A stretch of 64,000 bases of DNA from Phyllosticta citribraziliensis (lineage: Eukaryota). Positions 1 to 59,349 of the stretch are shown in pieces (positions within the stretch are counted from its first letter, which is position 1; every line of letters starts with the position of its first letter). The position numbers were made by a program, and so were the translations under genes. The stretch lies in NCBI RefSeq assembly GCF_038025025.1, contig NW_027117345.1, forward strand, positions 1,860,001 through 1,924,000, given 5' to 3'. The notes beneath the pieces were generated by a model. The model ran no database searches and was not told the origin of the DNA. It worked only from the letters and a program-made list of their open reading frames with translations.

Positions 1-1523
1 CACGAATGGCAATCAGCTATACCACTTTTGCGCCATACGACTGCTGCAGGAGAAACCAAAGGAAATCCGTCTTGGCAAAAAGACGGGCAAGAGTATCATT
101 TGGCATGCAAGGCAGATTTGTGGCATTGCGGCCAGCAACTCTCATCACGGCGCATGGGTGCGTATCACTAGCCCAACAGCATATTCGGCAACTAACTCAA
201 CCACTAGATCAATGGAATCCAGCCACTGTTCGTAGCAGGCAAGTTAATGAGCCATCCAAGCGAGCACCGCGCCATTCTCAAAGTCCTCAAACGCATCGAA
301 GAAGAGTGCGGCTGGGCGACAAAATGGAGAGCGGAGGAACTCCAAGAGCACTGGGGAACGGAGATGTGATCTCGAGGGGTAGGTTTGGTTCCTGCAGACG
401 AGAGTACGCCTATATGAAGTAGACTTTAACTGCGGAGGCCAATACGAGCGCCACGGGGAACCACGAGCGACCAAGAAAACGGGACAGTGGTTGGCATTGC
501 CAAACCAGACTTTCGGTATCACTCTCGAATGGCGCTGTTCGAATTTTCTTCTTCAGCCCTGCGACGCTGATGTCGACCCTGGCGATGCGAAATGCCTGCA
601 AGTCTCAGATGAATTCCGCGTAGGGCTCAGGGGCACTAATGCAAGACATACGCCGAGCAAAAGCCTAAGCAGAACAGAGGCTTGGTAGCAAAAGCCACGG
701 CACACACAACCTCCCAATCATACCACTCATGGACGCTTGAATGCTCCATATCACTACTCTCTTAGACTGTTGAATACTCCTGAGCACATGCTCATTCTAG
801 AGCGGCTTGAATGCATCCTGAGGGCGAGACTGATTCCCTGCTCTTATGTGTGCCACGAATTTTGTCACCAAGCCTCGAACTCTTTCAGCCGCAAGCTCAT
901 GCCCCAAATCTTACCGCTTTAGTGCGGTCGCCTCCAACGGGCTCCCACTCGAAAGATTTCAAGCGGCAAACACGTCGTCTGATCCACTCGCCCCGACATT
1001 TCGGGTCTTGAGCCGAGGTCTGTCTTGAAATTACTGCGACGAGCAAATAGTTTGCCCGCCAAAATTTAGCAACAATTTGAACCTTATACCGACATCCGAC
1101 TCCCACTCTCCCCCGTCGCTGCCGGGCTTCCGTATGCTTAACCTCTCCGCAGTCCCGGTCAAAAATGTACCGGTTTCTTCTTTCGTCGCTACCATGATCC
1201 TCTATGGTGCTCTCCTTCCGACTTAGTTACCAAACCGCTGTTCGCACGCGGACTCGTGCGCCGTTTCCCAGGCATCTCTCCAGAAAGTCGATTCTTCACT
1301 ACCGGATCTCGTCGGATATACCCGCCGCTGAGTCCGTCCCGAGCCGCGTCGACTTCCACCTCTTCCAGAAGGCGCCTTGGCCTTTTGCTGGCACAGGCAA
1401 ACCGCGTTGTTTCGTTTCGTCGACGAGAAAATAGTCCACAGCCGCTTTCCTTCCTTGTCGCTGCAGCTCATTGGCACTACCCGACCAAACTCACCACCCA
1501 CAATCACGCTCCTTACCGTCATT

Positions 1524-10528: not shown

Positions 10529-13510
10529 ATGGCGATGCGTACGTAAACTTGAGCTTCCCCATGCACACCGCCAACCCCTGCAAGCCAGCTTGCAAACATT
10601 CGTGGAAAAGCTCCAACTGACGATTCGGAAATGCAGAGCTGGACATGTCCAACGGTAAACGCAGCTCAACCCTTCTCGCGAGGCGCTCCTACTCCCGACG
10701 GTAGCTAATACCAGCACACAGCCCAGGTGATGAAGGACGAGTCTGGGAGACCGTTCATCATTGTCAGAGAGTATGTGTCACCAGCCCAGAAGCGGCGCTC
10801 CACTCGAGCAAGCGGTAACAAAAATACAGCCAGGGCAAGAAGAAGAGACAACACGGCACGGACGCGGTCAAGTCGCACATTCTCGCAGCCAGGACGGTTG
10901 CAAACATTGTCAAGACTTCGCTGGTAGGGCAATACAGACGTCGAATCGTGACCGTTTTGCTGATTGGAGAATAGGGCCCACGAGGCTTGGACAAGATTCT
11001 GATTTCCCCTGACGGAGACATTACGGTCACCAACGATGGCGCTACCATTTTGTCGCAGGTACAGAGGACCACAGCTAGGGACGAGCAGCTCTGACGGAAA
11101 ACGCAGATGGAAATCACCAACCACGTCGCAAAACTCTTGGTCGAACTCTCCAAATCTCAGGATGACGAAATAGGAGACGGCACGACCGGCGTCGTTGTCC
11201 TCGCCGGTGCGCTGCTCGAGCAGGCCTTGGATCTGATCGACAAGGGAATTCACCCCATCAGAATAGCAGACGGCTACGATGCTGCCTGTGAGGTCGCCGT
11301 GGCCGAGCTCGACAAGATTAGCGACGAAATCACCTTTTCCCGTGACAACACCGAGAACCTCTTCAAGGTGGCCAAGACGAGCTTGGGCAGCAAGATTGTG
11401 TCCAAGGCCCACGACAAGTTTGCCCAAATGGCCGTCGATGCTGTTCTTTCCGTTGCGGACCTGGAGCGCAAGGACGTCGATTTCGAACTCATCAAGGTCG
11501 ATACCAAGGTCGGCGGCGCGCTCGAAGACTCGGCCCTCGTCAAGGGCGTCGTCATCGACAAGGACTTTTCGCACCCCCAGATGCCCTCAGAGGTCCGCGA
11601 TGCAAAGATTGCGATCCTCACCTGCGCCTTCGAGCCCCCCAAGCCCAAGACCAAGCACAAATTGGACATTACCAACGTCGAGGAGTTTAAGCGCCTGCAA
11701 AAGTACGAGTCGGAAAAGTTCACCGAGATGATTGAGAGCATCAAGGCTACGGGCGCCAACCTTGCCATTTGTCAGTGGGGTTTTGACGACGAGGCCAACC
11801 ACATGCTTCTCACCAACGACCTGCCTGCTGTCAGGTGGGTCGGTGGTCCCGAGATTGAGCTGATTGCCATTGCCACCAACGGCCGGATAGTCCCGCGATT
11901 CGAAGACTTGAGCGCCGCCAAGCTTGGTACTGCTGGCGTCGTCAGGGAGATGACCTTTGGCACAACAAGAGACAAGATGCTTGTGATTGAGGAATGCGCC
12001 AACACGAGGGCAGTCACGGCTTTCTTGAGAGGAAGCAACAAGATGGTAGGATGAAAAGCTCAGTTGGACTATTAATGCTGACACGGCCTAGATTATTGAT
12101 GAGGCCAAGCGGTCCCTCCACGACGCTCTGTGCGTCGTCCGCAACCTTGTCACGGACAACCGCGTCGTCTACGGCGGTGGTGCAGCTGAGATCGCTTGCT
12201 CTCTGGCTGTCGAAGATGCCGCTGTCAAGGTAGGATTTCATCCAATCCGCATCAATTGTCGGAGCTGACCTCGAGACAGAGCCCTGGCCTTGAGCAATAT
12301 GCCATGCGCGCCTTTGCCGACGCGCTTGACTCTGTCCCCATGGCCCTCGCAGAGAACTCGGGCCTGAGCCCCATCGAAACCCTTGCGTCCATCAAGTCTA
12401 GACAGGTCAAGGAGTCCAACTCCCGGTTAGGTGTTGACTGCATGCAGTCTGGCAGCAATGGTAAGCAATCCTGCGCTTCCGCCTTGCGCCACTCAGATAT
12501 ACCCATGTCCACCTTTGGTTCCTTGCTTGTACTCGCCTGCGCTCCCTGCTCCTGCATTCTCTGCAGCCACTGCTGCCAGCTCTTTTGCGGCTGCATGGGG
12601 CTTGCAGCGTGGCGCCCCGACATTACACACCGAGGGCACACAGAGTCCAGGCCCGCGTTGTACATGCAGCGGCTCGCACCTTCTTTCGACACCACAACCT
12701 TTTTGCAAATTGGTCACTTTTACACAGACTCGAATTTGCAAGGCTGACGATTTGAGTGTAGATATGCGCGAGCACTTTGTCATCGACCCCCTGATTTCCA
12801 AGAGACAGCAGCTCCTGCTCGCTACGCAGCTGTGCCGCATGGTCCTCAAGGTACGTCAGCTTTTTTTCAGTCACATGCGATCCTTACCAAATCCCCTGCC
12901 TATCGTTGCGCGATGCTCTGCACCATCATCATCATCACCATCATCAGCCTGCAGGCGTCCAGCCACGGCGGAAGATCCGACGTCCAACGTCCCGTTCCGT
13001 CACCCACGCGACGGTCACACAGGATGCATACCCCCCTCACAACGAATCGAATCGCCAATCACCACCCCCTCCCCTGCAGCCACGCCGGAGCCCCGAATCT
13101 TCCATCACGCGGAAACATTCGCTCGCTGCAAAACCCTGCTTTTCTCCTTGCCTTGCTCCGCATAACCTTCCCTCGCCTCGAGCTCCCTCCCTGCCACTTT
13201 TCTATTCCCACACCCCTTGGTCAGGGCAATTGCCGAATGCCGTTGAATCCCCGCAAACGGCCATTCAGGTCGCGCCCGGAAAGCAGCATCCCCGCGTCCC
13301 CGCTGGTCCGCTGGTGGCGCCAGGGGTCTGGGGTAGATTTCCTATTCGCAGATGAGATTTGGGGATGCGCAGCCTCACCGCTCTTTTTTTTTCTCATTTG
13401 TTTTATGAATTTTCATCTGCAACGGGGGAAAAGGCTAACATTGTGGCGCTCTTTGCTTGCTCTAGGTCAACAACGTCATCATCGCCGGTTCGGACGAGAA
13501 CGAATTTTGA
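10529..13510 (+). CDS. CCT5: T-complex protein 1 subunit epsilon (chaperonin CCT5), multi-exon
   Basis: [25 protein letters not shown] start; motifs [58 protein letters not shown]-terminus [31 protein letters not shown]. The last two introns are 12461-12761 and 12851-13465. Confidence 0.97.
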
Positions 13511-25012: not shown

Positions 25013-25356
25013 CTACCATCCACGTTCGTGATATTCTTGCAGGCCGCTGTCAAAGTAATTCGTCGTCCAGGAGTTGTTGCCCTTTGCAGCGGGGTTTTCC
25101 TTGAGTGTCGGAAGAGGCGCTGGTTGAGGCTCACCCGGGTAATGCTTCAGGTTCTTCACATCGGTCGACGTATGTCTCCGCTTGAGAACGGCATTGTTGG
25201 TGGAATTCTTTTGCTGGCGTTCCCACAACAAGTGTTTCCTCAGCGACTCGGTCAGCTCGGTGGTGAGCATGTTTCGCCTAGTCGTCCGAGGAGACAATGC
25301 TGGTTGTGCAGCATGAGTGTTGGAGGTAGTCATGATGATGGGTTTCGACCGTGGAA

Positions 25357-25388
<32 letters not shown>

Positions 25389-26832
25389 GTTTCGGGAGCG
25401 GGTTCGTATCGGAGAGTGTTGGTGGTGGGAGAGGCAGCAATGGACGGGCCGTTGGGCGAAGTATTTTTGGATCGTCTCAGCGCAGGAGTCGATTGCGAGG
25501 CGGCGTTTTGTAATGCTTGGGCCCGGTCGCCCTCGTGCATCAGGGTAGTGAGAAGGGAGCGACGCGAAGTCAGGTTCGGTTTGGAGTCGACTCGTTGGAA
25601 CGACACCTTTTCTTCGACGCTAGCCGGTCCACTGTCCGTCTCCGAATCCTCCCACTGATCCTCGTCGTCGTCCTCGATGGCACTCTCCGACACCTCTTCG
25701 TCGCTATCACTTTCAAACACGTCTTCGTTTTCGTATGCCTTGGCAAGTGCTCTTGACGAGGTCATTTGTTCAAACGAGGGCTGTTTCCGTGCAATGGGCT
25801 TCCTCAGGCCGTCGGAGAGCGAACTGCGAGCATTGGTTCGTATTTGGGCCATTTGCATGTGAGTCTCAAGGGAGGAGTCCCCTCCCTCGTCCGAGGAGCC
25901 GCCAAGCGTGAACATGGCTCCCTTTTTCTTTTGCACAGGGGCGGGCTGCGTATTTTGAGGGGCGACCTTTAGGGTGGGAATGGGTTGCGGGTGTGGCTGC
26001 AAGTTGGTCTTGGAGCGATAGGAAGACGAAACGCGACCAGGCGAGAAGCCGCGGACGACGCTATGGGAACTGCAGTCTGTCGAAGTGCTAGTGTCAGAAC
26101 CAACAACGGGAGGACTGAGTTTTGAAAGATCGCTGTCGACGGCGGTGGCCACGGTCGAGGTCGACGACTCCGGGACCATCTGCGGCTGGGCGGTGGAACG
26201 CGGCGTTGTGTCCTCGGCGCGAGGCTCTTCCTTTTCACACAAGGATGGCATCTGCTGCACGGGCGGAGGCATGGGAAGTGGCGACAAGGGTTCCAGTTCC
26301 TTCTTCTCTTTGATTGAAATGACTAGGCTTTCAAGGTCAATGGGAGTTATGTGCTTTTCGGTCCCTCGGTTGCGGCTTTCGGTGGAGTCGAGTCTCCGAA
26401 TCTGAGGGCGTGCCGAGGAGGTGGTCTGGAGGGTTGCTATGCTGTTGACACGGTCGTCCGACACGTCGGATTCGAGGCTGGAAGAGAGGGCAGGCACAGA
26501 CATTGAGCCCGAATCGGAGCCCTTGCGGGTGAAGGACCAGGAGGGAGTGTCGAAGAGGGAGGGCGAGGGGGTGGGGTGGTCGGGAGCGCAGCAAAAGGTC
26601 TCGCGGTTCCAAAGACGCCAGCTGAGGTTTTCGAGACGCTTGCCTTCATCCAAGGAGTCGGAGCATTTGGCAAAGACTGCGAAGGTCAGGGTCAGCGGGG
26701 TGGAGACGGATGGAACCGAAGGGGTGGCTCACTCGACCAGAGACCAAACAATTGCTCAGGCGAGCGCGTGTCGACGGTGTGGATGGCAGCCGACTCGACC
26801 TGCAGTATGGGGACCTGCGACTTGAAGGGCAT
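25013..26832 (-). CDS. Mks1-like regulator (DUF1752 N-terminus + DUF3295 C-terminus), 2 exons
   Basis: MPFKSQVPIL...LFGLWS|IFAKCSDSLDEGKRLENLSWRLWNRETFCC (DUF1752-type, resembling the yeast Mks1 N-terminus). C-terminal LSPRTTRRNMLTTELTESLRKHLLWERQQK and YHERGW end. One short intron at about 26678-26732. Confidence 0.85.
25356..25388. repeat. (GTT/AAC)n trinucleotide repeat encoding a poly-Asn tract in the Mks1-like protein
   Basis: About 11 consecutive AAC/AAT-type codons, giving ETNNNNNNNNNNIPR. Confidence 0.9.
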
Positions 26833-36475: not shown

Positions 36476-39400
36476 ATGGCTACCGATGGGGAAATCAATG
36501 CCGCGCCAGATGGCAGTCCTCAGCAGGAAAAAGAAACCACGACCTCACCAGATACCGATGCGTCTCCTGGACCGAAGCTTCGCGACGAGGAGCACGCCTA
36601 CAACGAGAAGGGCGCCATTGAGGTACAGCATGCTGCCGCTTCAGACACGGACTTGTCCTACGATGTCCGCAAGGAGGACCGCTTCGGCGAGGTCGTTGTC
36701 CTGAGCGATGCAAAGGACCTCGTCACCCACGTTTTGCACGTCGACGAGTTTTTTACCCCCAAAGCACTCTTTTGCAGCCGAGTGGTGCTGAACAAGTCGC
36801 CAGTGACCCAAGCTTGAGCCCATGGACGTTCAGAGCCATATCAATTGGTTTGTCTCCTTTGCGCGATTGATTCATCACTGCTTCTGCTGATCTGGCCTAG
36901 GAACCGGACTGTCCATTTTCTCGTCTGTTCTGCAGACAATCTTCTACTTCAAGCCTGTACGTCGCTTCAGGAACCCATATCATCTGCGCAGTTGTCCGTT
37001 GCTTTTCACCATCGTGCTTGAGCTTTGGACGGTCTAGACCTGTGCTGCCCTGAGACGACGTCCAACATTCTGCCTCTTCTCCACACGCTGTCCACCGAGA
37101 GAATTCGCTGACTTTCGAGCTTGTAGCAAGTCATTTACATCTCTGTCGTATTTTTGGTAAGTTCAAATCCCAGGGGCATCGACGGCCTCTGCTTGGATCC
37201 AACCCCTGGATCCCGAAGGCCCACAACATCTTTGTTGCGCACTGCGTCTCTTATACATCTTTGTCCAGACTGTAATTGCCTACATCATCGGCGAGGGAAT
37301 GGCCCTCATCCCACGAATCGGTCCCGTCGGCCGATTCCTGAACCCTTTCCCCTTCAACTCAAAGGAGCACGCCTTCATCGTCGTCATGGCATCGGCAGGT
37401 GCGACCAGCGCTGTCGCTACCGAGATTCTCGCAGCGCAGAGGCTGTACTACAACGAGAAGCCCAGTGTAGGGGCGGCGGTCTTCTTGGTCATCTCGGCGC
37501 AGTTGTTGGGATACGGAATCGCAGGGCTGATGTACGTTGTCTTGTGTCTCGGGTTCTTTTGCTTTGTTTTACCATTGGATTCGGAGATGACTGACTCTGA
37601 AACCACAGGCGCGAGGTCTTGGGTATGCTACCCAATGTGATTGAAAAATGACGCACCCGATGAACTGACATGACAATCACTTCAGTCCAGCCGACGAGGA
37701 TGTTATGGCCCATCAACATCCCGGTCAACTCCCTGTTCGAGACGCTGCATCGAGACCGCACCGAGACGTGGAAACGACTCCGCGTATTCCTCATCGTCTT
37801 CTTCGTCATGTTCTTCTACGAGATCATCCCGGTGAGAAGTTCCCAACCGGAGATAAATACGCCATGGCATCCGACTGACGTATAGGTGAAAAGGAGTGGA
37901 TGTTTCCCCTTTTGCAGGGCGTCTCGGTATTCTGCCTCGCCAACCAGGACTCCCTTGTATTCACAAACCTCTTTGGCGGGTCTCAAGGCAATGAGGGGCT
38001 GGGCTTCTTGAGTGTCAGCTTCGATTGGCAGTACATTGCCTCGCTTGGCTCCCCTTTGTGGATGCCGCTGTACACGCTGACCAATTCCTGCGTTGGGTAT
38101 TTGCTCTGCATTTGCGTGAGTCCAGACCCTCCCTGTTGACCTCTACCAAGACTGTCGCTTGAGCAGCATCGAATATGAGCTGAACCCAAACATGATAGCT
38201 TTACATGGGACTGTATTACATGAACGTATGGCGAGCGAAGGACGTCCCTTTCATGTCCCAGCTCCTGTTCGATCCTAGCTCCAATTTCACAAGCTACGTC
38301 GAGTACAATCTGACAAAGATTCTCCACTCGGACAACACCATCAACGACACTGCGGTCGTGGAGGCAGGCATCCCGTACTTGACCGCGACATACATCTCCT
38401 ATCTGATCACGACAAACATGGGCATCACGGCCGCTCTGGTGCACATGGCGCTTTGGAATTACGATGTGGGCATCTCCAGACGTTCATGATGCCACAGCTT
38501 GCTTACTGGGGGACAGGATATCAAGTACGGCTGGTCGTTTTTGAGGCCATCCGCGCTCAAGAAAGTCCTCAACCCCTCGTGGTGGAGATTCTGGGAAGGC
38601 GGAGAGACCCAAGAAGAACACAAGCAGCGAATCCTCGCGGATCCGTCGATGGATCCTCACTACAAGTATGTCCGCTTCTGTCTTTGGCCGTTTGAGAAGC
38701 CTAGTACTGACTCATCATCATCACAGGCTGATGATGCAAAACGGCTACAAGGAAGTGCCGCAATGGTGGTATGGCATAGTTCTTGTTGTCACCTTTGTCA
38801 TCGGCATGGCCACGCTCTACGGAATCAAGAGCACCCTGCCCTGGTGGGGATATATCGTCGCCAACGTCTTTGCGGCGATTTTCATCTTGTTTTTCGGGGC
38901 GCAGATGGGCCTGACAGGTCAGATTACTCGAACTTTCGCCGTGGAAACTTTTCTAACTATACGCAGGCTTCCAGTTCAACCAACAGCCAGTCCTCCAGAT
39001 GTTGGCAGGCTACCTGCATCCCGGACGGCCACTCGCCAACATGTACTTCACGACGTTTGGGTACAACGGCGTGTCGCAAGGGCAATGGCTCCTGCGGGAC
39101 CTCAAGCTCGCGCAGCTGGCGCACCTCTCGCCGCGGTCCACCTTCACGGCGCAGATGCTGGGCAGCATCATCGGGGCCGTGTTCGACTACATCATGATGG
39201 AAACCATAGTCGACAACCAGTCAGATATCCTGAAGTCGGTCGAGGGCTCCAACATCTGGTCCGGCCAGAACGTGCAGCAGTACAACACGCTCGCGCTGGC
39301 GTGGTCCATGGCCAAGCACATGTTCAGCGTCGGCGCCCGCTACCAGTGGGTCACCATCTCGTACCTGATCGGCTTCGTCGTGCCGTTTCCGCTCTGGCTG

Positions 39401-39982
39401 CTGTACCGAAAGACCAAGATCCGCTTCTTCCAGTCCGTCAACCTCAGCATCATTCTGTGGTACATGGGATGGCTCTTTGTCGGCGTCAATTCGTCCATTT
39501 TGAGCTACTTTGCCCTCGGCTTTTTTGCGCAGTTGTGAGTTCTTCCCGCTCCTTTCTCGTCCTACTGCCTCTCTGTTTAGCTTATGCGCTGACATGGTAC
39601 GTACGCCTCTACCACCTACCTCCGCAAGTACAAGCCACAGTGGTTCGTCCGGTGGAACTACCTCGTCTCGGCGGCGCTGGACGGCGGCACGCAAGTCATT
39701 GTCTTCATCCTCAGTTTCGCCGTCTTCGGCGGCAGTGGCAAAGGTATGTACATGCGCTCTTGGACACCACCGCTCGATCTTTCAGGACGGGAGGGATCAG
39801 GCGAGAGCTGACTTGGGTGATAGCGCACGACTTTCCCCTGTGGGCTGGCAACAACGGCGGCATAGCGCAGAACAAGAACATCGACTTCTGGTGAGTCTGC
39901 CTGCGACCATAGTAGTGAAGACCAAAGACTTCTAGCTTCTGACAACGCGTATAGCATGTACAATCCCGCCAACGGAGGTTGA
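36476..39982 (+). CDS. OPT-family oligopeptide transporter (isp4/OPT-like), many exons
   Basis: Spliced motifs DDPSLSPWTFRA, FLNPFPFNSKEHA, SAQLLGYGIAGL, LFGGSQGNEGLG, DPHYK..YKEVPQWWY, PGRPLANMYF, DLKLAQLAHLSPR, WNYLVSAALDGGT, FPLWAGN, and MYNPANGG* at 39980-39982. Includes a 14-nt exon (37609-37622) and a 30-nt exon near 37127-37156. Confidence 0.92.
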
Positions 39983-42727: not shown

Positions 42728-44550
42728 CTAATCGCTGAATCCACCCCACTCATCACCCTCCTCTTCCTCTTCAGGATCACCGACGCCTCCTTCAGCAGCC
42801 CCTTCCATCTCCTCGTCGTCCCCTTCGTCTTCTTCTCCGTCCTCCCCATCCCTCACAAACCCCACGACAAAGAACCCCATCGTCCCCTCCTCAGTCCCCT
42901 TCTCACACCTCAAACAAGCCTCAGCCACAACACCCCTATCCGCCCCACACTCAACACCGACCAAACTCTCACACGCCTCTCGTGTGCCCCTGACGGCCCA
43001 CCTCTTCATGCCCTCGACCTGCTCGTCGCGGCGCAGCACGCGCCAGCCGCGCCGCCGCGCCACCTCCGACGCCAGCGCCCGCAGCACCACGTGCTCGTTC
43101 TCTGCCGCGTGCACCGAGCACGTCGAATACGCGATCTTGCGCGCGCGCGCAAACGCCATGGCGTGTGTGACGATTTTCAGCTGGAAGGCCGCGAGCGCCG
43201 CGAGCCGCTTCTGCAGCTCGGCGGCTGAGGCGGCTGGGTCGTCTTGCTCTTCTTCTGTCACGCTGACTGTCGTGGTAGTGGTGTTGGCGGCAGATTTGCT
43301 GCCGTCGTCGGTGGCACCGGGTTTGCTGCGTTTGCGCTTTTTGCCGCGCGTGTGCTCGTTTGCCGCGTTGCTGCTACTGGTGGTGCTGGGCAGGACGAGC
43401 TTGATTGCGTCGTCGCGGCCGACGATGCCGCTGCCGGAGCAGCTGGGGTCGAGGAGGAGGGCGCCCACGGTGGACGCTTCGGCAGCGTGCTGGGGGTCGA
43501 GGCGGGTAAAGTCCTGGTTGGCCTTGACGGTGATGAGCCTGGCCGCATGCGCCGTCTCAATCATCTTCTGCAGAATCTTGGAGCGCTCCTTGTCGCGCTC
43601 GCAGGCAAAGATGTGCTGTTTTGGCTTCTGGCTCCGTGCCTTTGCGGCCTTGGTGACGAGCGCGGCCAGATGCGTGGTTTTGTTTCCCGGCGCGGCGCAC
43701 GCGTCGATGATGTCGCCGTCCTCGGGCTGCACGTTCAGTAGGTACGCCGGGAAGCACGATGCCTTGTCTTGGATGATGAGCTGCCCCTTTTGGTACGCCG
43801 CGTTCTTGGTTAGGTCGGCTCGCGGTGGCAGGGCTATCAAGTCTGGGATGTTTTCGTCTACGTGCAGCACCTTCGCGCTGGCTGGAGCTCTCATGACGTC
43901 GCGGAGGCTCTCTTTCTGCTCGTACGAGGAAAATGTCGACTTCAGCTGCTCATCCAGAGTGGTCTTGACAGAGTTGATGCGAGCCCATCGCGGGTGCTCT
44001 GGTTCTTTTGAGTCGTCACCGTCATTTTGCTCATGTCCATCGTTGATGTGCTGTCTAAATGCGTCGACGGTTGCAAAACCTCTTCTCACTCGGATCTTGG
44101 TGAACTCGGCGTTTAGACGTGCCTTGTGCCTGGTGACGGCGAGTCTCAAAACATGGTCTGCATGTGCTGCAACACCTTTCTTTGAGAGAAGCAGGTCATG
44201 CGTGAGAAGAATGGCAAGAAGGGGAGTCAGCTGTAAAAGTCAGTGGGTGACCTCAACTGAAGCGCATGGTGTCTTGGTTGGACACGGCAGAGAAATGAAC
44301 GTCTTGGCCGAAGAAAGACTGTGATCAGGGGGCTGATGTTGGAACCAACCTTCTTCTCAAGACCCAAGATGCCGCTCTTCTCCACGACATCCTTGAGGAT
44401 TGGCGACCATTTTGTCGACTCGGTGACCAGGGCAAATATGGATGCCTTGTTGCTCTTCAATGACTTGTCGCCAAAAATTCGGGACTTGAGCGAGCCTCCT
44501 TTCTTGTTGGCATTCTCAATCACACTTGCTGCTTCATAGTACAGCGACAT
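42728..44550 (-). CDS. RCM1: 25S rRNA m5C methyltransferase Rcm1/NSUN5 (NOL1/NOP2/Sun family), 2 exons
   Basis: MSLYYEAA start; intron 44231-44349; motifs PRWARIN, IIQDKASCFPA, IDACAAPGNKTTH, LLDPSCSGSG, YSTCSVHAAENEHVV, GTMGFFV. Confidence 0.93.
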
Positions 44551-52927: not shown

Positions 52928-53838
52928 TTACCGGTTGGACTTGGCGACACGCTCCAGCTCGTCCTTCTTCTTGATGGCGTACGAGTTGCTGCTGCCCTTG
53001 GCGGCGTTGATGAGCTCCTCGGCAAGGCACTCGGCGATCGACTTGATGTTGCGGAAGGCGGCCTCGCGGGCGCCGATGGTCAGGAGCGCGATGGCCTGGT
53101 TGACGCGGCGGAGGGGCGACACATCGACGGCCTGGCGACGGACGGTACCGGCGGAACCGATGCGGGTCGAGTCTTCGCGGGGACCGCAGTTGACAATGGC
53201 GTCGACGGCGACCTGGATGGGGTTCTGGTCGGTCATGATGTGGATCTGTGGGGTTGTGGTGTTAGATTCCAAGCATTTTTATTTTCGGCGCGGCGAGTGA
53301 AGCTGGTGCCGCGGCCTCTTGCGCGTTCATCTCGCTGCTTGATTTGGGTACGTACGATCTCGAAAGCGTGGGCAACGATGCGAACAGCCATGAGCTTCTT
53401 GCCGTTGTTGCGGCCGTTCATCATCAGAGAGTTGGTCAGACGCTCAATGATGGGGCACTGGGCCTTCCTGAAGCGCTTGACGGCATAGCGGCCGGCCGAG
53501 TGGGGGAGGTAGACGGGAGTGCGGATCTGGATGTAGTCGCTGCAGTCCGTCAGCATTTCTGGCCTCGGGCTCGATGGAGCTTCATCGCGTTCGCATGTCC
53601 TTCAGTCCCATCGCCGCGCTCAATTCACGCCAATTTTTCCAAGACTTTTTATTCCGTTTGTGCGTGCGACTCAGCAGAGAAGAGGGGAGAAACCGTACGT
53701 CAAGGAGATGTCCCTGATCTCGACATCCTCGAAGCTCCACTTGTTGAACAGCTTGATGCTGCCAATCTCCTCGGTGACCTCCTTGGGAAGGACGGGGTAG
53801 CCGGTGGGGCTCTCGACCTCGATTTCGCCCTCAGACAT
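52928..53838 (-). CDS. RPS5: 40S ribosomal protein S5 (uS7), 3 exons
   Basis: [25 protein letters not shown]...[27 protein letters not shown]...[10 protein letters not shown]...[25 protein letters not shown]. Introns 53540-53698 and 53246-53355. Confidence 0.98.
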
Positions 53839-53994
53839 GTTGACCAGGTGTGCGACGACTTGGGGGGTGGGTTGATTGAGCGAGGAGACTGGACGGTCGT
53901 CGGTGGGGGGATTGGTTGTTGTCGCCGGTACTGTCGAGGATAATTTCAGAAGAGGCCCGGATCAACTGAGTGCCGCACGAGCCTCGCTTAGCGC

Positions 53995-54003
53995 TCACGT
54001 GAC
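53995..54003 (-). promoter_or_regulatory. RTCACGTG (bHLH/Cbf1-type E-box) about 160 bp upstream of the RPS5 start
   Basis: GTCACGTGA on the minus strand in the RPS5 promoter. Function inferred only. Confidence 0.4.
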
Positions 54004-54299
54004 GACGACCTCAACACCACCACATCGACTATACCTACTTGAGTCCACATCCATTTCTCGCTCATTTTTGCTACGGTAGTAATGAGAGTTTATGACCACG
54101 GTAGCTTCGTACTCTTAGCCAATGCCAAATGTAGCAAGCCCTCGCGCCCACCATGCTTCAAATCACCACCACCAACTCGCACAGACCATGTGAGGGGAGA
54201 AGATATGGTCTAGATATATTTACAGATCTAGAAAGTCAATGGGACTTAAATTGAAAGTCCCGTCGAAGAGTGGTATCATGTACAAGCCAGGCCCAACAG

Positions 54300-55361
54300 C
54301 TATCTCGCTGAGCCCAAAACAACCTCCTCCAACGCCTCGCCCAAGTCGGTGTAGGTAATCTTAACCGTACCCTTCTCAGCAGCCCTCTTCCAAGCCGCCT
54401 CGATATCAGCATGTCCAACCTTAACAACCCATCCAGAAGCCGTGACGAATCTGAAAAAGCCATCACCACTCCTACCCCTCCCAACCACACCCTCAGCCCT
54501 CAGCAACCGCTCCAACCACTCTCTCCCCTCAACACCACCGCTCTTCCCGACCCTCCCCGCAACATCCTCAACCCTGACAACTCCCCGTCTCTCCAGCCCA
54601 TCCCTCACAAGCCGCACCGCCTCGCGCTGCGCTCGCGTCTCGTCCTCCCGCGCCCTCCTCTCCCTCTCCCGCCGCTCTTCTCGCTCCCGCCGCGCCTTCT
54701 CCTCCAGCGCCGCCTCCGCCACCGCCCGCCGTCTCTTCTCCTCGTACACTTCGGCCTCGCGCTCCTCGGCGCCCTCGGCGTCGCGCGCCCGCTGCGCCTC
54801 GCCCTGCGCCCGCATGAACTCGTGGTACGCCCGCCGCTGGTCGCGCCGCGCAATTGAGCGCGCCTTCTTCGCGCCGACCTGGCGAGACGCGCGCGCAGCG
54901 GCGGCGGCGGGGTTGTTGTCATTGTCGTTATCGTTGTGATTGCCGTTGTGGTTGATGTTGGCGGGGCCCGCGGCGTGCTCGTCGTCTAGCTCGTCGTCCA
55001 CGCGCGCTTGATTGCCATTTGCGGCACCAGCCCAGCCGCCGTGGACAGCGGCCTCGGCAGCGGCGTCTTCAGCGTCGACATCGGCAGCGTCTTCAGCGGC
55101 GAGGAAGTCGTCCTGCAGCGCGTCAGGGTCGGCGACAGCGTTGTCGTGGTCGTCTAGCCCGCCGCCACCCGTCGTCGCTTGCTGCGCGCCGCTGCCATAC
55201 TGTCGTGAATTCCCACGGTCGCTTTCGAAAATCTGCGGCGCATAGTAGAGAAAGGCGACGAGGCAGGCCGTGTGGATGAGGTCTTGGAGCAGTGGCGTGC
55301 CGGGTCGCGTGAAGGGCAGCAGCCGGTTGAGGAGGGCTTGGATGGCGCGGAGAGGGTTCAT
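54300..55361 (-). CDS. Membrane-anchored coiled-coil protein, divergent DDRGK1/UFBP1-like
   Basis: 353-aa ORF: N-terminal hydrophobic segment (LIHTACLVAFLYYAPQIF), acidic linker, VGAKKARSIARRDQRRA, E/R-rich coil, and C-terminal GVVRVEDVAGRVG...LLRAEG...FVTASGWVVKV...AAEKGTVKITYTDL. Confidence 0.75.
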   Translation of the reverse strand: MNPLRAIQALLNRLLPFTRPGTPLLQDLIHTACLVAFLYYAPQIFESDRGNSRQYGSGAQQATTGGGGLDDHDNAVADPDALQDDFLAAEDAADVDAEDAAAEAAVHGGWAGAANGNQARVDDELDDEHAAGPANINHNGNHNDNDNDNNPAAAAARASRQVGAKKARSIARRDQRRAYHEFMRAQGEAQRARDAEGAEEREAEVYEEKRRRAVAEAALEEKARREREERRERERRAREDETRAQREAVRLVRDGLERRGVVRVEDVAGRVGKSGGVEGREWLERLLRAEGVVGRGRSGDGFFRFVTASGWVVKVGHADIEAAWKRAAEKGTVKITYTDLGEALEEVVLGSAR

Positions 55362-55779
55362 GGTGTGTGGCGTTCGATCGGGGTGTCTGTCATATCTCGA
55401 GGAGAGGTGCAATGGAGCCCGGGGAAGAAGTTGGGGGCATGTTGCGATTTGATGCGCTGTCAGTGGTCTAGAAATGAAGGGTGCCGGGCATGCTGGAAAA
55501 TGTCCGGTCTGTGACGTCTGAATGGCGGCCATGACTTTCCTACACGCACCCAAGCACCCAAGCACCCAAGCACCCAAAGTGCTCTCAATGTATGCTCAAG
55601 GTTCGCATTCGCCTGGACCATGGAAGAGATGGAGTTTTGTGCTATTGACAAGGCTAGAGATGAATGTTCTAAGGGCGCTCAAAGGCCATGGTATTCAACA
55701 TGCCCTCTACGCTATAAGCTATTCAAGGTCTTGAACGAGAATCGCCTCTCTCCATCTAACCGACCCTTTTTGTCGAGGT

Positions 55780-58700
55780 TCACACCTTTTCAACGCCCTG
55801 TTGCGCCTTTTTACCATTCCCCTTCCCATTCCCCTTCTGCTTCTGCTTCTGCTGCTTGCCGCCCGCAGCATTAGCGTTCTTGCCATTGCCATTACCCTTC
55901 CCCTTGCCATTGGGCTGCGCCTTAGACTTCGACGCCTCCTCCTCCGCCTGGATACCATCTTCAGCCTCGACCTCCTCCTTGGCCTCTTCGGCAAACAGCT
56001 TCTCCATGGCCGGGACAAAGTACTCGAGCTCAGCAAACTCGCCCATCTTGATCCTCATGAGATCGCTGGCAAAGCCGACGCGCATGTCGCTTTTGACGAC
56101 GATCTTGGCGGGCGCCGCAGCGGGCTCGTCGGCCGCCGGGGCAACCGCTGCAACTTCCTGGGGCAGCGTGGTGCCTTCGGCGCTGTCGACCATGTCGAAG
56201 AAGCTGGCAGCCTCTTCTGGCGGGCCGTCGACGTCCATGGCGCTGTCGTCCTGCTGTCCCTTTTGCTCCTCCGAAGCGGCAGCGGGTGCCGACTCGTTTT
56301 CGCCGTCGGGTTTGTCGTCTTCTTTGCATTCCGGCTCGCGCACCATGACGGGCAGCTTCTGGTACCGCTGGCTGAAGTGGGTTAGAAGGACGCACTTGGC
56401 GCGCATGCGGGCGCCGACCTCCAGTGCCTCGCTGGTCGTCGAATGCCTTTTAGCCTTGGCGTCGCCCAAGAGCCCGTCTTCAAAGGTGGCTTCGTGGATC
56501 AGCAGAGTCGAATGGCGGCCTATTTCGGTAAATTGCTTATAGTTCGGGCGACAGTCGCCGCTGTAGGAAACTTTGAATGGCTTGCTGTCCTCAGCTGACT
56601 GATCCGCGCGAGTCGCATCCGGCCATGTCAGGCTGACTGCTTGGGCGTTGTGGCAATGCTGGACGAAGCACGTCCGTAGATCCTGAAGACCAAATAGAGG
56701 CTCCCAGAGGGACTTAGGAATTGCTTGGCCTTCTCCATGACGGACCAATTCAATCTGGCCATCCCAAGCACCCACCGGCCAGATTTGTGAGTATCCAAAG
56801 TCCTCAACACCAGAGTACTCTGCCAACCAGCCGTGCAAGGGTTGGGAAGCAACAATAGCCAGGCGTTTGGTAGCTCCAGCTGACTCTGGGTTTCTACGGA
56901 TGGAATCCAATGCTTGCCGAGCATTCTGCCTTGACGGACGACCCTTGTGAACGATATGGTACCACGCTTTGATAATAGGAATTATGCCAAGAATGTGGTC
57001 AGCGTGAGGGTGGCTGAGGTAGATCATGCGGAGATCTTTAAAAATCTCGATGAGTTTGGCAGGTTCAAAGGCACGCTGCAGCTGACCAAAGGTGCCCTCT
57101 CCGCAGTCCAACAGGTAGGAGCCGTATCCAGGAACGCGAACCAAGGTGGCAGACACGTTGCGATATAACGAAGGCATTGCTGATCCGGTTCCCAATGGAA
57201 TCACTTCGGCTTCGGGACAGGGAATCTTCGCCCGCCACTGTGCAAGCTCTGATTCAGACTCTTCGATGTTTGCCCTGGCCTTGCTCGCGGCTTCAACGAC
57301 GTCGCTTTGGAGCTTGGCGAGGGCTGCTTTGGGATCATATCCAGGCGACCTCAGATCCGAGTCGACGGGCTTGAATGTCGGCTTCAGCATGTACTCGGCA
57401 CAGAGCTCTATTGGCTCAGCGTTCTGCGCCAAGGTGATAGAAGGTTCCGGCTGAAAGCTTTCGTAGGTCGTATGTGACAATATGGGGTTGCCATTGTAGG
57501 ACTCCTTGAACCTCTTCTCGTCTGCATGGGTCATTCGCAGTATTGAACCGGCACTCTTCTTGAAGATGATTTGGTTTGAGCCCAGATCCAGTGAAGAAAC
57601 AAGATGCTTCACCTGAGGCAAGGACTCCATAAAGGACTTGAGGACGGGATCGGAGGCCACACCTGGCCCGAGAGTCCAGATGATGAGCTGCAGGTTGTCC
57701 TTAATATCTGGAAACTCCCATTCGCTGCGGCTGATGAGTGGCTTGACGTAGTCGACAGAGGGCAGATCGATGACTGCGAGAGCCATGCCCACGCGCGACG
57801 GGCCCATCACCATGTCGGGCGTGATGGTATCGCCGTTCTTCAGTTGGATGGTCTGCCCTTGCGCAAGCTTTCCGCGTTCCGCTCCTCTCGCCACATTTAA
57901 CGCGTCTGCTCTGCCGGCGTCAAACTTGCCTCGTATATCGCAAGTCTTGATCAGGTACGAAACCGCCTCCGGTGCGGGTTCGACAGGAGGGAGACTCGCA
58001 ACCTTGGTCGCCGGCCAGGGCTCTCGCGCCAAGACTATCGGATCATGCTTTGCAGCAGACCAGTCGAAAGGCTCAATCTTGTTGCTGTCTGGAGCACGCC
58101 AGAAGAGCTTCGCGGGGAGCTTAACCTCGGAGAATCTCGTCTCAAACAGAGCGTCCAGACTCCAAGTGGAATTGAACATGTTCGATACCACCTCCTTGGC
58201 GACTTGGGCTGGGTTCTGAGAAACTGTTGACGGGGGCTTTTCGTTCCCATTCGATTTTGACGTGGAAACGACATCACTCATCTCATCGTGGCTCCTCTTT
58301 TTACCACTCGAGGTTGAGGATGCTGGGGATGGCTGATCGCGAAGAGGCGAAACGGCCATGGGGTATAATTTGATGTTTTCGTCGACATACGAGGGCAGGA
58401 GCTCTTGGTTGTCCCCTCTTGGAGGATCGTCCGTAACCTCAAAAGTATTCAACGGCATCCCTCTTTTGAAAATGACCCTTCGGGTCGTCGCGATTGTGTA
58501 GTTGAGATTCGGCGGCCCAATCACATTCAGCGAGACCGGCTCCCCCGAGCCCTTGGTGCTCTTGTCCTGATTGCTCGCAATCAGTTGGTCGGCCTTTGTG
58601 AGAGTCATGCCCAGCAGCCCTCCCAGGCTCCTCCATTCCGAGCGGCCGGTCAGGAAGAAATCGTGCGTCTTGACCAGGCGCACACCCAGCTCCGTCATTG

Positions 58701-59349
58701 TCCGCTGCATGGCCTCGCCCATATTGCCAATCATGTATTGCTTGCTGTCGGAGTTGAGAACCACCATGGTGCTCGGTGTGTCCGCCGTGGGCGTCGACAC
58801 TACCCTCAAGCTTGCCTTCATTGTGTCGCGCGATTTCGGGGAAATTGCGGTTTCGCAAATGATGGGGAAGCCACTGGAGTTCGTCTCGACAGCCGTGTTC
58901 AAATCGTTTGGGTCAGGACGTTGTTCGACGGATTCAGGCGCGGATGACTGATTTATGAGCTTCAATTTGCGGGACAGACGTCTCACAATGGAGTCGCATA
59001 CCTGTCGCCCTCCTTTGCTTGATTGAGGGTCGCCAAAAAAGCTAGACCACAGAGAGCCGAAAGATTCTCGTTTCGTCGGCGTCGAGGTAAAAGTTCGACG
59101 TCGGACCACCCAGTGCGGACGTAGAGGCGCAGAGGCTCTCACATTCGCGAGAGAGCGTGCGGCTTTGTAATTCAGAGCCACCGCTGAAACGCGACGTTCA
59201 GTTGAACTTGCTATCGTGGCGACCGGGAAGAACGAGCATGAGCAGAATCTGAGTGCTGTGCAGTAGTTTGGGGAGAAACGCAAGACGCGAATGACGCTCC
59301 AGAATTTCTGAGTCGCCGCAATGCATCCCGGTAGTGTAGCACGGGGCAA
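55780..59349 (-). CDS. TRZ1: tRNase Z long form (Trz1/ELAC2); conserved start Met at 58821, N-terminal extension uncertain
   Basis: VVSTPTADT, GKFDAGRA..GAERGKL (flexible arm), LGTGSAMPSLYRNVS, LLDCGEGT, SHPHADH, YSGDCRP, IHEATF, KRHSTT, LTHFSQRY. Confidence 0.95.
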   Translation of the reverse strand: MPRATLPGCIAATQKFWSVIRVLRFSPNYCTALRFCSCSFFPVATIASSTERRVSAVALNYKAARSLANVRASAPLRPHWVVRRRTFTSTPTKRESFGSLWSSFFGDPQSSKGGRQVCDSIVRRLSRKLKLINQSSAPESVEQRPDPNDLNTAVETNSSGFPIICETAISPKSRDTMKASLRVVSTPTADTPSTMVVLNSDSKQYMIGNMGEAMQRTMTELGVRLVKTHDFFLTGRSEWRSLGGLLGMTLTKADQLIASNQDKSTKGSGEPVSLNVIGPPNLNYTIATTRRVIFKRGMPLNTFEVTDDPPRGDNQELLPSYVDENIKLYPMAVSPLRDQPSPASSTSSGKKRSHDEMSDVVSTSKSNGNEKPPSTVSQNPAQVAKEVVSNMFNSTWSLDALFETRFSEVKLPAKLFWRAPDSNKIEPFDWSAAKHDPIVLAREPWPATKVASLPPVEPAPEAVSYLIKTCDIRGKFDAGRADALNVARGAERGKLAQGQTIQLKNGDTITPDMVMGPSRVGMALAVIDLPSVDYVKPLISRSEWEFPDIKDNLQLIIWTLGPGVASDPVLKSFMESLPQVKHLVSSLDLGSNQIIFKKSAGSILRMTHADEKRFKESYNGNPILSHTTYESFQPEPSITLAQNAEPIELCAEYMLKPTFKPVDSDLRSPGYDPKAALAKLQSDVVEAASKARANIEESESELAQWRAKIPCPEAEVIPLGTGSAMPSLYRNVSATLVRVPGYGSYLLDCGEGTFGQLQRAFEPAKLIEIFKDLRMIYLSHPHADHILGIIPIIKAWYHIVHKGRPSRQNARQALDSIRRNPESAGATKRLAIVASQPLHGWLAEYSGVEDFGYSQIWPVGAWDGQIELVRHGEGQAIPKSLWEPLFGLQDLRTCFVQHCHNAQAVSLTWPDATRADQSAEDSKPFKVSYSGDCRPNYKQFTEIGRHSTLLIHEATFEDGLLGDAKAKRHSTTSEALEVGARMRAKCVLLTHFSQRYQKLPVMVREPECKEDDKPDGENESAPAAASEEQKGQQDDSAMDVDGPPEEAASFFDMVDSAEGTTLPQEVAAVAPAADEPAAAPAKIVVKSDMRVGFASDLMRIKMGEFAELEYFVPAMEKLFAEEAKEEVEAEDGIQAEEEASKSKAQPNGKGKGNGNGKNANAAGGKQQKQKQKGNGKGNGKKAQQGVEKV

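What the first reader, a model, noticed from the sequence alone, without database searches (positions are those of the whole stretch)
54300..55361. Cryptic DDRGK1/UFBP1-like protein in a lineage thought to lack UFMylation
Seen: N-terminal membrane segment, acidic linker, VGAKKARSIARRDQRRA, E/R coil, then RGVVRVEDVAGRVG...RLLRAEG...FVTASGWVVKVGHADIEAAWKRAAEKGTVKITYTDL. From my recollection of human DDRGK1, the same order holds: TM, IGAKKLRKLEEKQARKA, coil, SKVVLLEDLASQVG...DLLAEG...[34 protein letters not shown]. The namesake DDRGK is replaced by TASGW, and the segment between coil and winged helix looks shortened. Established: DDRGK1 anchors the UFM1 E3 ligase at the ER for 60S/translocon quality control, and UFM1 is regarded as absent from yeasts and most higher fungi. 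Inference: a retained orphan subunit serving a UFM1-independent ER-ribosome or ER-phagy role.
Basis: partly seen in the sequence, partly recalled or inferred. Interest (0 to 1): 0.78.

Follow-up and report, generated by a model that had tools for sequence, protein, structure and literature searches.

The report
Divergent DDRGK1-like protein in ascomycete fungi
This fungal gene encodes a distant relative of DDRGK1/UFBP1, the ER anchor of the UFM1 ligase in animals and plants, that has lost the parts that touch UFM1, so it may show what this protein does without UFM1.

Summary
It belongs to a conserved ascomycete family (269 hits; 222 representatives).

Homology to DDRGK1/UFBP1 is supported:
- A profile of 28 diverse members puts human DDRGK1 at ranks 1-3 in the PDB (E 6.8e-4, 2.8e-3, 8.8e-3).
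- A confident model of residues 236-353 has DDRGK1 as its best fold match among 48,161 chains (Z 8.4, the only Z of 8 or more).

It is not a canonical member. It gets no Pfam DDRGK hit. The DDRGK loop reads TASGW. The UFM1-binding linker appears missing. The C-terminal half-domain that docks UFL1 in humans is kept.

The gene tree follows ascomycete taxonomy, which points to old inheritance with losses.

UFM1, UFL1 and the rest of the pathway could not be searched, because no genome is held. "Orphan" and "UFM1-independent" therefore stay inferences. Retention of DDRGK1 and UFL1 in some UFM1-less fungi is already in print (PMC10183829).

The scan had not noted this protein on other DNA.

The parts
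54300..55361 (-). Complete intronless CDS, 353 aa plus stop (P0001)
   Evidence: Homologues align end to end. Contigs of four runs cover it without joints.
54227..55457 (-). Transcript-like cover: contigs of runs X1 and X2 at 100% identity
   Evidence: no cover at 53900-54219 or 55500-55627, and the upstream in-frame ATG at 55532 lies outside the cover. X1 and X2 are only guessed to be RNA. X8 and X9 are declared RNA-seq and cover 54255-55432 at 90-95% identity.
55191..55361 (-). N-terminal anchor region (res 1-57) with the Dothideomycete motif LLPF..PGTP..QD..H..LY.AP
   Evidence: 9 of the 23 invariant columns of A1 lie in residues 14-42. Hydropathy is weak, 1.23. The model has helices at 3-14 and 24-56. 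Membrane anchoring is inferred from relatives that have a clear TM segment.
54912..55190 (-). Acidic disordered linker (res 58-150)
   Evidence: 25% D/E, net charge -22; pLDDT 40-58; length varies among relatives.
54810..54884 (-). Basic motif RQVGAKKARSIARRDQRRAYHEFMR (res 160-184), the most conserved block of the family
   Evidence: 10 of the 23 invariant columns of A1 (G163 K165 K166 Q175 R177 A178 Y179 E181 F182 R184). HMMER aligns it with the human IGAKKLRKL segment, where the ordered ribosome-bound helix starts (chain 8ohd_C from residue 117).
54588..54911 (-). Long charged helix (res 151-258), counterpart of the UFBP1 helical arm
   Evidence: Modelled as one helix with pLDDT above 90 from residue 170. 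VIA aligns model 152-352 with DDRGK1 117-304, Z 7.2.
54414..54656 (-). Winged-helix domain (res 236-316), counterpart of UFBP1 WH1'
   Evidence: Domain model pLDDT 94.1. Best match 8c0d_E, Z 8.4, rmsd 3.8, 94 of 94 residues aligned. Foldseek's top 7 are DDRGK1 chains.
54429..54443 (-). Wing loop TASGW (res 307-311), in the place of the human DDRGK motif
   Evidence: HMMER alignment. Over 71 family sequences: T in 70, G in 69, W in 58, K in none of the top six residues listed (58 W, 3 Y, 2 F, 2 M, 2 V, 1 R); the position matching R265 is variable, R in 7.
54303..54413 (-). C-terminal two-helix partial winged helix (res 317-353), counterpart of UFBP1 pWH'
   Evidence: Helices 317-329 and 337-352. 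Included in the 94-residue match to DDRGK1 213-306. The Pfam DDRGK model matches this part (profile 143-184) in 7 of 24 Orbiliomycete, yeast and unnamed relatives, best E 1.6e-4.

Best explanation
The gene encodes a divergent homologue of DDRGK1/UFBP1. It was inherited vertically from the ascomycete ancestor and is kept in only some lineages: Dothideomycetes, Orbiliomycetes, Pezizomycetes, a few others, Saitoella, and Trichomonascaceae yeasts.

What it keeps of the architecture:
- an N-terminal membrane anchor;
- an acidic disordered spacer;
- a basic motif that starts a long charged helix;
- one winged helix;
- a C-terminal half winged helix.

What it has lost are the elements that serve UFM1 chemistry in humans:
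- the UFM1-binding linker (UFIM);
- the DDRGK-loop arginine that contacts UFC1 and CDK5RAP3;
- the UFMylated lysine.

Inferred mechanism. The protein sits on the ER membrane facing the cytosol. It docks 60S subunits near the exit tunnel through the conserved basic helix, as the human UFBP1 arm does. Its half winged helix recruits a partner, most likely a UFL1-like winged-helix scaffold. No UFM1 is conjugated.

Shown here: the architecture, the homology, the lost and kept motifs, the phyletic spread, and signs of transcription. Inferred: ER location, ribosome docking, the partner, and UFM1 independence.
For: Sequence:
- The profile of 28 diverse members (A2) against 177,635 PDB sequences gave 7 hits at E <= 10. 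Four are DDRGK1, at ranks 1-3 (8ohd_C 6.8e-4; 8c0d_B 2.8e-3 with bias 0.0 on the winged-helix part alone; 8b9x_A 8.8e-3) and rank 6 (8qfc_D 0.49).
- Pfam DDRGK is the family matched by most members. It matched 9 of 40 at E <= 1 and 12 of 24. The matches are collinear, at profile 2-99 on the basic/coil start or 143-184 on the C-terminus.

Structure:
- Domain model: Foldseek's top 7 are DDRGK1 chains. VIA wide puts DDRGK1 at ranks 1-3, Z 8.4, 6.8 and 6.7, covering 94-100 residues. The first unrelated chain has Z 6.5 over 67 residues.
- Whole model: Foldseek's top 6 and VIA's top 4 are DDRGK1.
- ESM Atlas: the nearest named clusters carry PF09756, and the top structural row is a DDRGK1 cluster.

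Lost and kept features:
- TASGW stands in place of DDRGK.
- There is no break between the long helix and the winged helix, where humans have the UFIM linker at 196-205.
- pWH' is kept.
- Roles of the human elements come from PMC10937380 (passages) and PMC7916544 (passage).

Descent and expression:
- The gene tree of 39 sequences needs 6 label changes for 7 taxon groups, the minimum possible.
- Contigs from RNA libraries cover the gene.

Literature: fungi lack UFM1 and C53, and UFL1 and DDRGK1 are often co-retained after UFM1 loss (PMC10183829, passages and its review file).
Against: - The window's protein has no Pfam hit even at E <= 10 and no DDRGK1 hit by phmmer against the PDB.
- The Dothideomycete-only profile A1 found no DDRGK1 in the PDB. 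The Orbiliomycete profile A3 found it only at E 0.4.
- No family member reaches the Pfam cutoff: best 21.8 bits against 27.8. PF09756 matched only 1 of 36 distant representatives at E <= 0.01.
- No Foldseek hit reaches E <= 0.001.
- For the whole model, Z 7.2 is only 0.5 above unrelated long helices.
- The full-length PDB hit carries heavy compositional bias (domain score 13.9, bias 47.7).
- The N-terminal segment of this protein is weakly hydrophobic.
- Nothing here shows ER location, ribosome binding or a partner.
- The absence of UFM1, UFC1 and UFL1 from this genome was not tested.
Confidence: 0.55

Rival explanations
1. True orphan. The fungus has lost UFL1 as well as UFM1, and the DDRGK1-like protein works alone, for example as an ER-ribosome tether or a receptor for some other partner.
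For: Reviews and phylogenomic papers state that the UFM1 pathway genes are lost throughout fungi (PMC8057497 and PMC7916544, passages). The UFC1/CDK5RAP3-contacting arginine and the UFIM are gone. The most conserved blocks are the anchor and the basic motif, not the winged helix: 19 of the 23 invariant columns of A1.
Against: The partial winged helix exists in humans only to be completed by the UFL1 N-terminus (PMC10937380). It is conserved here and is the best-scoring piece against Pfam DDRGK in 7 of 24 relatives. PMC10183829's review file reports frequent co-retention of UFL1 and DDRGK1 after UFM1 loss, fungi included.
Confidence: 0.25
2. Working UFBP1 in an overlooked, complete UFM1 pathway. 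These ascomycetes still UFMylate ribosomes and this is simply a fast-evolving E3 subunit.
For: The overall architecture is fully retained. Pathway absence in this genome was not tested. Divergent components escape Pfam thresholds, as this protein does.
Against: UFM1 and UFC1 are small, highly conserved proteins, and several surveys report them absent from fungi (PMC10183829, PMC8057497, PMC7916544, passages; PMC4092871, abstract in the search listing). The UFIM linker, R265 and K267 equivalents are missing family-wide.
Confidence: 0.1
3. Not a DDRGK1 relative. An unrelated membrane protein has a charged helix and a generic PCI-type winged helix, and resembles DDRGK1 by convergence and composition.
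For: Scores are modest: best sequence E about 1e-3, no Foldseek E <= 1e-3, and generic winged helices reach Z 5-6.5. The coil region is low-complexity and inflates the full-length score.
Against: The winged-helix-only PDB chain scores 20.4 bits with bias 0.0. DDRGK1 is rank 1 by four different methods. Only DDRGK1 matches the winged helix and the two extra C-terminal helices together: 94-102 aligned residues against 57-71 for most generic WH/PCI chains, with three other tandem-winged-helix chains matching a similar length at lower Z (UFL1 94, SelB 95-98). The order anchor, acidic spacer, GxKK motif, helix, WH, pWH' is collinear.
Confidence: 0.07

Closest known systems
Human DDRGK1/UFBP1 (PDB 8ohd chain C, 8c0d chains B/E, 8b9x, 8qfc chain D)
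   Same: The order of parts is the same: N-terminal anchor, acidic spacer, GAKK-type basic motif at the start of a long charged helix, winged helix WH1', and a C-terminal partial winged helix pWH'. Model residues 152-352 align with human 117-304. The domain model aligns with human 213-306 at Z 8.4.
   Different: - 13-22% identity.
- No Pfam DDRGK hit.
- The DDRGK loop is TASGW, with no R265 or K267 equivalent.
- The UFIM linker is not seen; the helix is continuous.
- The family has its own RRAYHEF extension of the basic motif.
- In Dothideomycetes the classical TM segment is replaced by a weakly hydrophobic conserved motif.
UFL1-DDRGK1 pairs retained in eukaryotes that lost UFM1 (Picchianti et al. 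2023, PMC10183829)
   Same: It is a DDRGK1-type protein in a lineage reported to lack UFM1 and C53. The paper itself suggests UFM1-independent functions (passages).
   Different: I could not see which fungi that paper scored as retaining DDRGK1 or UFL1. Figures are not held and three supplementary PDFs were too large. Whether this ascomycete family is among them is unknown. UFL1 was not tested here.
Generic PCI/winged-helix domains (COP9 signalosome, proteasome lid, ESCRT-II)
   Same: The same winged-helix fold over about 60-75 residues, Z 5-6.5.
   Different: They do not cover the two C-terminal helices or the preceding long helix, and they rank below DDRGK1 in every search.
Asgard archaeal UFL1/DDRGK1-like winged-helix scaffolds
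   Same: They are relatives of the UFL1-DDRGK1 core that exist without UFM1. [quoted passage not shown]
   Different: Not compared here. The fungal family is a eukaryotic descendant with the full DDRGK1 layout.

Membership tests
DDRGK1/UFBP1 (Pfam PF09756, DDRGK domain) | Score above the Pfam gathering cutoff (27.8 bits) | tested here: not met
   P0001 has no hit at E <= 10. The best family member, P0270, scores 21.8 bits. Sub-threshold hits occur in 9 of 40, 12 of 24 and 1 of 36.
DDRGK1/UFBP1 | The namesake DDRGK loop in the wing of WH1' (R265 contacts UFC1 and CDK5RAP3; K267 is UFMylated) | tested here: not met
   The aligned residues are T-A-S-G-W. Over 71 members W is in 58 and K is not among the residues listed; R at the R265 position is in 7. 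Human roles come from PMC10937380 and PMC7916544 passages.
DDRGK1/UFBP1 | Winged-helix domain WH1' with the DDRGK1-type fold | tested here: met
   Domain model pLDDT 94.1. 8c0d_E has Z 8.4, rmsd 3.8, 94 of 94 aligned, the only Z >= 8 among 48,161 chains. Foldseek's top 7 are DDRGK1.
DDRGK1/UFBP1 | C-terminal partial winged helix (pWH') that pairs with the UFL1 N-terminus | tested here: met
   Two helices, 317-329 and 337-352, follow the wing. They are included in the match to human 213-306. Pfam profile 143-184 matches this part in 7 of 24 relatives. Actual pairing with UFL1 was not tested.
DDRGK1/UFBP1 | Long charged helical arm that begins with a G-A-K-K basic motif | tested here: met
   Helix 151-258. 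HMMER pairs VGAKKA with human IGAKKL. VIA aligns 152-352 with 117-304.
DDRGK1/UFBP1 | UFM1-interacting motif (UFIM, human 196-205) between the arm and WH1' | tested here: not met
   Human residues about 195-198 are an insertion relative to the fungal profile. Both models run as one unbroken helix into the winged helix. This rests on an alignment in a weakly similar stretch, so confidence is moderate.
DDRGK1/UFBP1 | N-terminal transmembrane anchor | tested here: inconclusive
   The best 19-residue hydropathy in P0001 is 1.23. Orbiliomycete, Pezizomycete and Saitoella members score 2.0-2.6. No dedicated TM predictor was available.
UFM1 E3 ligase complex (UFL1-UFBP1-CDK5RAP3 with UFM1, UBA5, UFC1) | Partner genes present in the same genome | not testable with these tools
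   No genome is held for the window. No pathway family was found among the 31 longest ORFs of the window at E <= 1e-5. No permitted seed sequences for UFM1, UFL1, UFC1 or UBA5 were available.

The most novel reading that the evidence does not exclude
These ascomycetes carry a natural separation-of-function form of DDRGK1. The UFM1-related parts are stripped away. The ancestral, UFM1-independent job survives: an ER-anchored helix that docks at the 60S exit-tunnel site and competes with Sec61, with or without a UFL1-like scaffold. On this reading ribosome docking and release, not UFM1 conjugation, is the original function of the UFL1-DDRGK1 module. Dothideomycetes would then have re-invented the membrane anchor with a new conserved motif.
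Probability: 0.3. Interest if true: 0.7.

Novelty: new variant of a known kind. Interest (0 to 1): 0.5.

Why it matters
The UFM1 field has no clean way to separate what UFL1-DDRGK1 does as a ribosome-binding scaffold from what UFM1 conjugation adds. A conserved fungal DDRGK1 relative that keeps the anchor, the ribosome-arm motif and the UFL1-docking half-domain, but lacks the UFM1, UFC1 and CDK5RAP3 contact elements, would make that question testable in fungi that are easy to manipulate.

It also corrects the textbook shorthand 'fungi have no UFMylation machinery'. The family is present in all three ascomycete subphyla. No member from a class outside Dothideomycetes, Candelariomycetes, Geoglossomycetes, Orbiliomycetes, Pezizomycetes, Saitoellomycetes and Dipodascomycetes appeared among the named rows of my searches, so the usual model fungi may lack it. 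Those lists are truncated and limited by word sharing, so this absence is an impression, not a result.

Tried and rejected
- The genome search on the window's own genome with PF09756: no genome is held.
- The listing of cluster members for taxon names of 10 distant members: the database was switched off. I did not repeat it.
- phmmer of P0001 and the Dothideomycete-only profile A1 against the PDB gave no DDRGK1. The weak calmodulin and CIB rows (E 0.48-1.6) sit on the helix-loop-helix of pWH'. I judged them chance, because the window's protein has no acidic calcium loop there.
- Iterated word-based searches with A2 and A4 returned only fungal family members and no Pfam-positive DDRGK1. No profile-profile (hhalign) test against a canonical DDRGK1 alignment was therefore possible.
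- Homodimer prediction of residues 236-353: 'no answer' (score 0.02, mark 0.32). This is no evidence either way.
- Supplements of PMC10183829 for a species table of fungal DDRGK1/UFL1: the readable files were proteomics and the review file. Three PDFs were too large.
- Literature searches found no paper on an ascomycete DDRGK1-like protein. One search was badly framed and uninformative.
- Earlier notes of this scan: none on this genome and none for this sequence. A word search gave five notes, all on Asgard archaea, which did not change my reading.
- The parts of the stretch without contig cover are only a weak hint of transcript ends.
Full report
**Observation.** The minus-strand frame 54300-55361 translates to 353 residues plus a stop.
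- The CDS is 66% G+C, with 75% at third codon positions. This explains the long spurious ORFs on the other strand and in other frames.
- An in-frame ATG further upstream (55532) is not used by relatives, which start at the MNPLRAIQ-type N-terminus. It also lies outside the contig cover of four sequencing runs.
- Those contigs cover 54227-55457 at 100% identity in two runs whose RNA nature is only guessed. In two declared RNA-seq libraries of a plant metagenome they cover 54255-55432 at 90-95% identity. There are no joints, so no intron is seen.
- 30 of the 40 listed differences of the related organism fall on third codon positions of this frame.
- The closest database proteins are hypothetical proteins of Phyllosticta citriasiana (82% identity) and P. 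capitalensis (73%). The window is therefore from a Phyllosticta-like member of the Botryosphaeriales, Dothideomycetes.

**Anatomy.** The AlphaFold model made with 40 relatives (mean pLDDT 77.7) shows these parts:
- short N-terminal helices (3-14, 24-56);
- a disordered acidic stretch (58-150; 25% D/E, net charge -22);
- one unbroken helix from 151 to 258;
- strand, helix, helix and a two-stranded wing (261-315), followed by two further helices (317-329, 337-352).

The 23 invariant columns of the Dothideomycete-centred alignment A1 are distributed as follows:
- 9 in the N-terminal motif (L14 to P42);
- 10 in the basic motif G163-R184 (VGAKKA...RRAYHEF);
- 3 arginines in the helix;
- T307 in the wing.

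The N-terminal segment of this protein is only weakly hydrophobic (best 19-mer 1.23). Members from Orbiliomycetes, Pezizomycetes and Saitoella have a classical hydrophobic segment (2.0-2.6) at the same place.

**Is it a DDRGK1 relative? Negative or weak results first.**
- P0001 has no Pfam family even at E <= 10 and no DDRGK1 hit by phmmer against PDB sequences.
- The profile of 40 mostly Dothideomycete sequences also missed DDRGK1 (12 hits at E <= 10, best 0.23, none DDRGK1).
- No family member reaches the Pfam DDRGK cutoff of 27.8 bits.
- No Foldseek match reaches E <= 0.001.

**Positive results.**
- Pfam. PF09756 is the family hit by most members below threshold. It hit 9 of 40 in A1 (best E 0.012; the next family hit 4 of 40), 12 of 24 Orbiliomycete, yeast and unnamed members (best 1.6e-4, 21.8 bits), and 1 of 36 distant representatives at E <= 0.01. 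The matches are collinear. Five of the 12 lie on profile positions 2-99 over the basic/coil start. Seven lie on positions 143-184 over the last 35 or so residues.
- Profile against the PDB. A profile of 28 taxonomically diverse members (A2) gave 7 hits at E <= 10. Human DDRGK1 takes ranks 1-3: 8ohd_C E 6.8e-4, 8c0d_B E 2.8e-3, 8b9x_A E 8.8e-3. A fourth DDRGK1 sequence scores 0.49. The full-length hit is inflated by the charged coil (bias 47.7). The 110-residue winged-helix construct 8c0d_B scores 20.4 bits with bias 0.0. The Orbiliomycete-only profile gave only 8c0d_B at E 0.4.
- Structure, whole model. Foldseek's six best PDB chains are all DDRGK1 (E 8.6e-3 to 8.1e-2). VIA-align on Foldseek's list ranks four DDRGK1 chains first (Z 7.2, 7.1, 6.4, 6.3). 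In the exhaustive search 8ohd_C is rank 1 (Z 7.2), but unrelated long helices follow at 6.7-6.2.
- Structure, domain alone. I modelled residues 236-353 with 71 sequences (pLDDT 94.1, pTM 0.83). Foldseek's seven best chains are DDRGK1 (E 1.0e-2 to 4.3e-2, probability 0.96-0.99), and the next is ESCRT-II at 0.098. The exhaustive VIA search of 48,161 chains puts DDRGK1 8c0d_E first with Z 8.4, rmsd 3.8 and 94 of 94 residues aligned. It is the only chain with Z >= 8. Two more DDRGK1 entries follow (6.8, 6.7). The first unrelated chain has Z 6.5 over 67 residues.
- ESM Atlas. It lists PF09756 clusters as the nearest named neighbours (scores 0.76-0.83, leads only) and a DDRGK1 cluster as the top structural row.
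- Existing labels. UniRef already names some members 'DDRGK domain-containing protein'.

Taken together I put homology at about 0.9.

**What is kept and what is lost.** The HMMER alignment to human DDRGK1 gives three pairings:
- VGAKKA pairs with human IGAKKL, at the residue where the ordered ribosome-bound chain begins (117).
- T307-A-S-G-W311 pairs with D263-D-R265-G-K267.
- The last two helices pair with the human C-terminus up to residue 297.

According to passages of Makhlouf et al. 2024 (PMC10937380):
- the human N-terminal helical arm is a ribosome docking site at 28S helices 24 and 47 near eL31, and it clashes with SEC61;
- residues 196-205 form the UFM1-binding UFIM;
- R265 of the DDRGK loop contacts UFC1 D50 or CDK5RAP3;
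- the C-terminal pWH' is completed by the UFL1 N-terminal pWH through hydrophobic contacts.

A review passage (PMC7916544) gives lysine 267 as the UFMylated residue.

In 71 family sequences the wing reads T (70 of 71), two variable positions, G (69 of 71), W (58 of 71). The position matching R265 is R in only 7. The listed residues at the K267 position are W, Y, F, M, V and R. Human residues around 195-198 and 211-222 are insertions relative to the fungal profile, and both models show no break between arm and winged helix.

So the UFM1, UFC1 and CDK5RAP3 contact elements are missing. The arm's basic start is the most conserved block. The UFL1-docking half-domain is retained.

**Distribution and descent.**
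- The exhaustive profile search of 1.84 billion representatives found 222 proteins at E <= 0.001 (181 at <= 1e-10).
- Named members are mostly Dothideomycetes. There is also one Candelariomycete (Pycnora) and one Geoglossomycete.
- Further members are Orbiliomycetes and the yeasts Sugiyamaella and Trichomonascus, and Pezizomycetes and Saitoella.
- I saw no named row from a class outside these. Those lists are truncated (120 of 269 shown) and limited by word sharing, so absence elsewhere is not shown.
- I hand-picked 39 named sequences from these lists for a quick maximum-likelihood tree and left all other family members out. Rooted arbitrarily on Saitoella, it recovers Saccharomycotina, Pezizomycetes (SH-aLRT 87), Orbiliomycetes (100) and a clade of Dothideomycetes plus Candelariomycetes plus Geoglossomycetes (99). 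It needs 6 label changes for 7 groups, the minimum. This fits vertical descent from the ascomycete ancestor with later losses better than transfer.

**Surroundings.** The neighbours are housekeeping genes: a uS7/RPS5 gene with introns (53233-53838, minus) and tRNase Z (55780-58821, minus). None of the 31 longest ORFs of the window matched a UFM1-pathway family at E <= 1e-5.

**What could not be done.**
- No genome is held for this window, and I had no permitted seed sequences for UFM1, UBA5, UFC1, UFL1 or CDK5RAP3. The key claim that the pathway is absent here rests on the literature:
[quoted passage not shown] - 'lost throughout the Fungi clades' (PMC8057497, passage).
- I could not see the figure or tables that say which fungi were meant.
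- Five literature searches found no paper describing this ascomycete family.

**Verdict.** The protein is best described as a divergent DDRGK1/UFBP1-like protein, not a canonical member. It fails the Pfam threshold, lacks the namesake loop and apparently lacks the UFIM.

The most likely mechanism is an ER-anchored ribosome-docking adaptor that still recruits a UFL1-like partner through its half winged helix and does not use UFM1. This is inference from what is conserved.

The general idea is already in print, and automated annotation has labelled some members. The new content is the definition of the ascomycete family, its pattern of lost and kept elements, and its vertical history. I score interest at 0.5.

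Noticed in passing
window 55191-55361 (-), residues 1-57: Dothideomycete members replace the classical hydrophobic N-terminal segment of Orbiliomycete, Pezizomycete and Saitoella members with a strongly conserved but weakly hydrophobic motif (LLPF..PGTP..QD..H..LY.AP). Nine invariant columns lie here. What kind of membrane anchor it makes is unknown.
   Followed up: partly
window 54303-54413 (-), and relatives P0036, P0021, P0079: In many relatives the loop between the two pWH' helices reads like an EF-hand loop (D/G-rich, then G-x-V/I-x-F/Y-x-x-L). One member is named 'EF-hand domain-containing protein' by UniRef, and the A1 profile gave chance-level calmodulin hits (E 0.48). The window's own protein has no acidic loop there.
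   Followed up: partly
window 54912-54959 (-), residues about 135-150: The low-complexity N/H/D run (NINHNGNHNDNDNDNN) differs in length among the three Phyllosticta-type sequences in alignment A1. A short GPA(N) motif just before it is nearly invariant across the family.
   Followed up: no
window 53233-53838 (-) and 55780-58821 (-): The flanking genes are a ribosomal protein uS7/S5e gene split by introns and a 1013-aa tRNase Z (ELAC2-type) gene.
   Followed up: partly
window 25013-26728 (-): An ORF with a full-length DUF3295 match (E 1.3e-172) preceded by an AreA-type GATA-like N-terminal domain.
   Followed up: no
window 42728-44239 (-); 11095-12054 (+); 1332-3469 (+); 38545-39894 (+): Other recognisable genes: an NSUN5-like rRNA methyltransferase, a TCP-1/CCT chaperonin subunit, a serine carboxypeptidase S10 in two ORF pieces, and an OPT oligopeptide transporter fragment.
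   Followed up: no
window 54236-54939, both strands: Several ORFs of 75-148 aa overlap the CDS on the plus strand and in other minus-strand frames. They are probably by-products of the 66% G+C and the codon bias (GC3 75%).
   Followed up: partly
runs X8 and X9 on window 54255-55432: Two RNA-seq libraries labelled plant metagenome hold contigs 90-95% identical to this gene. A related fungus therefore appears to express its orthologue in plant material.
   Followed up: no
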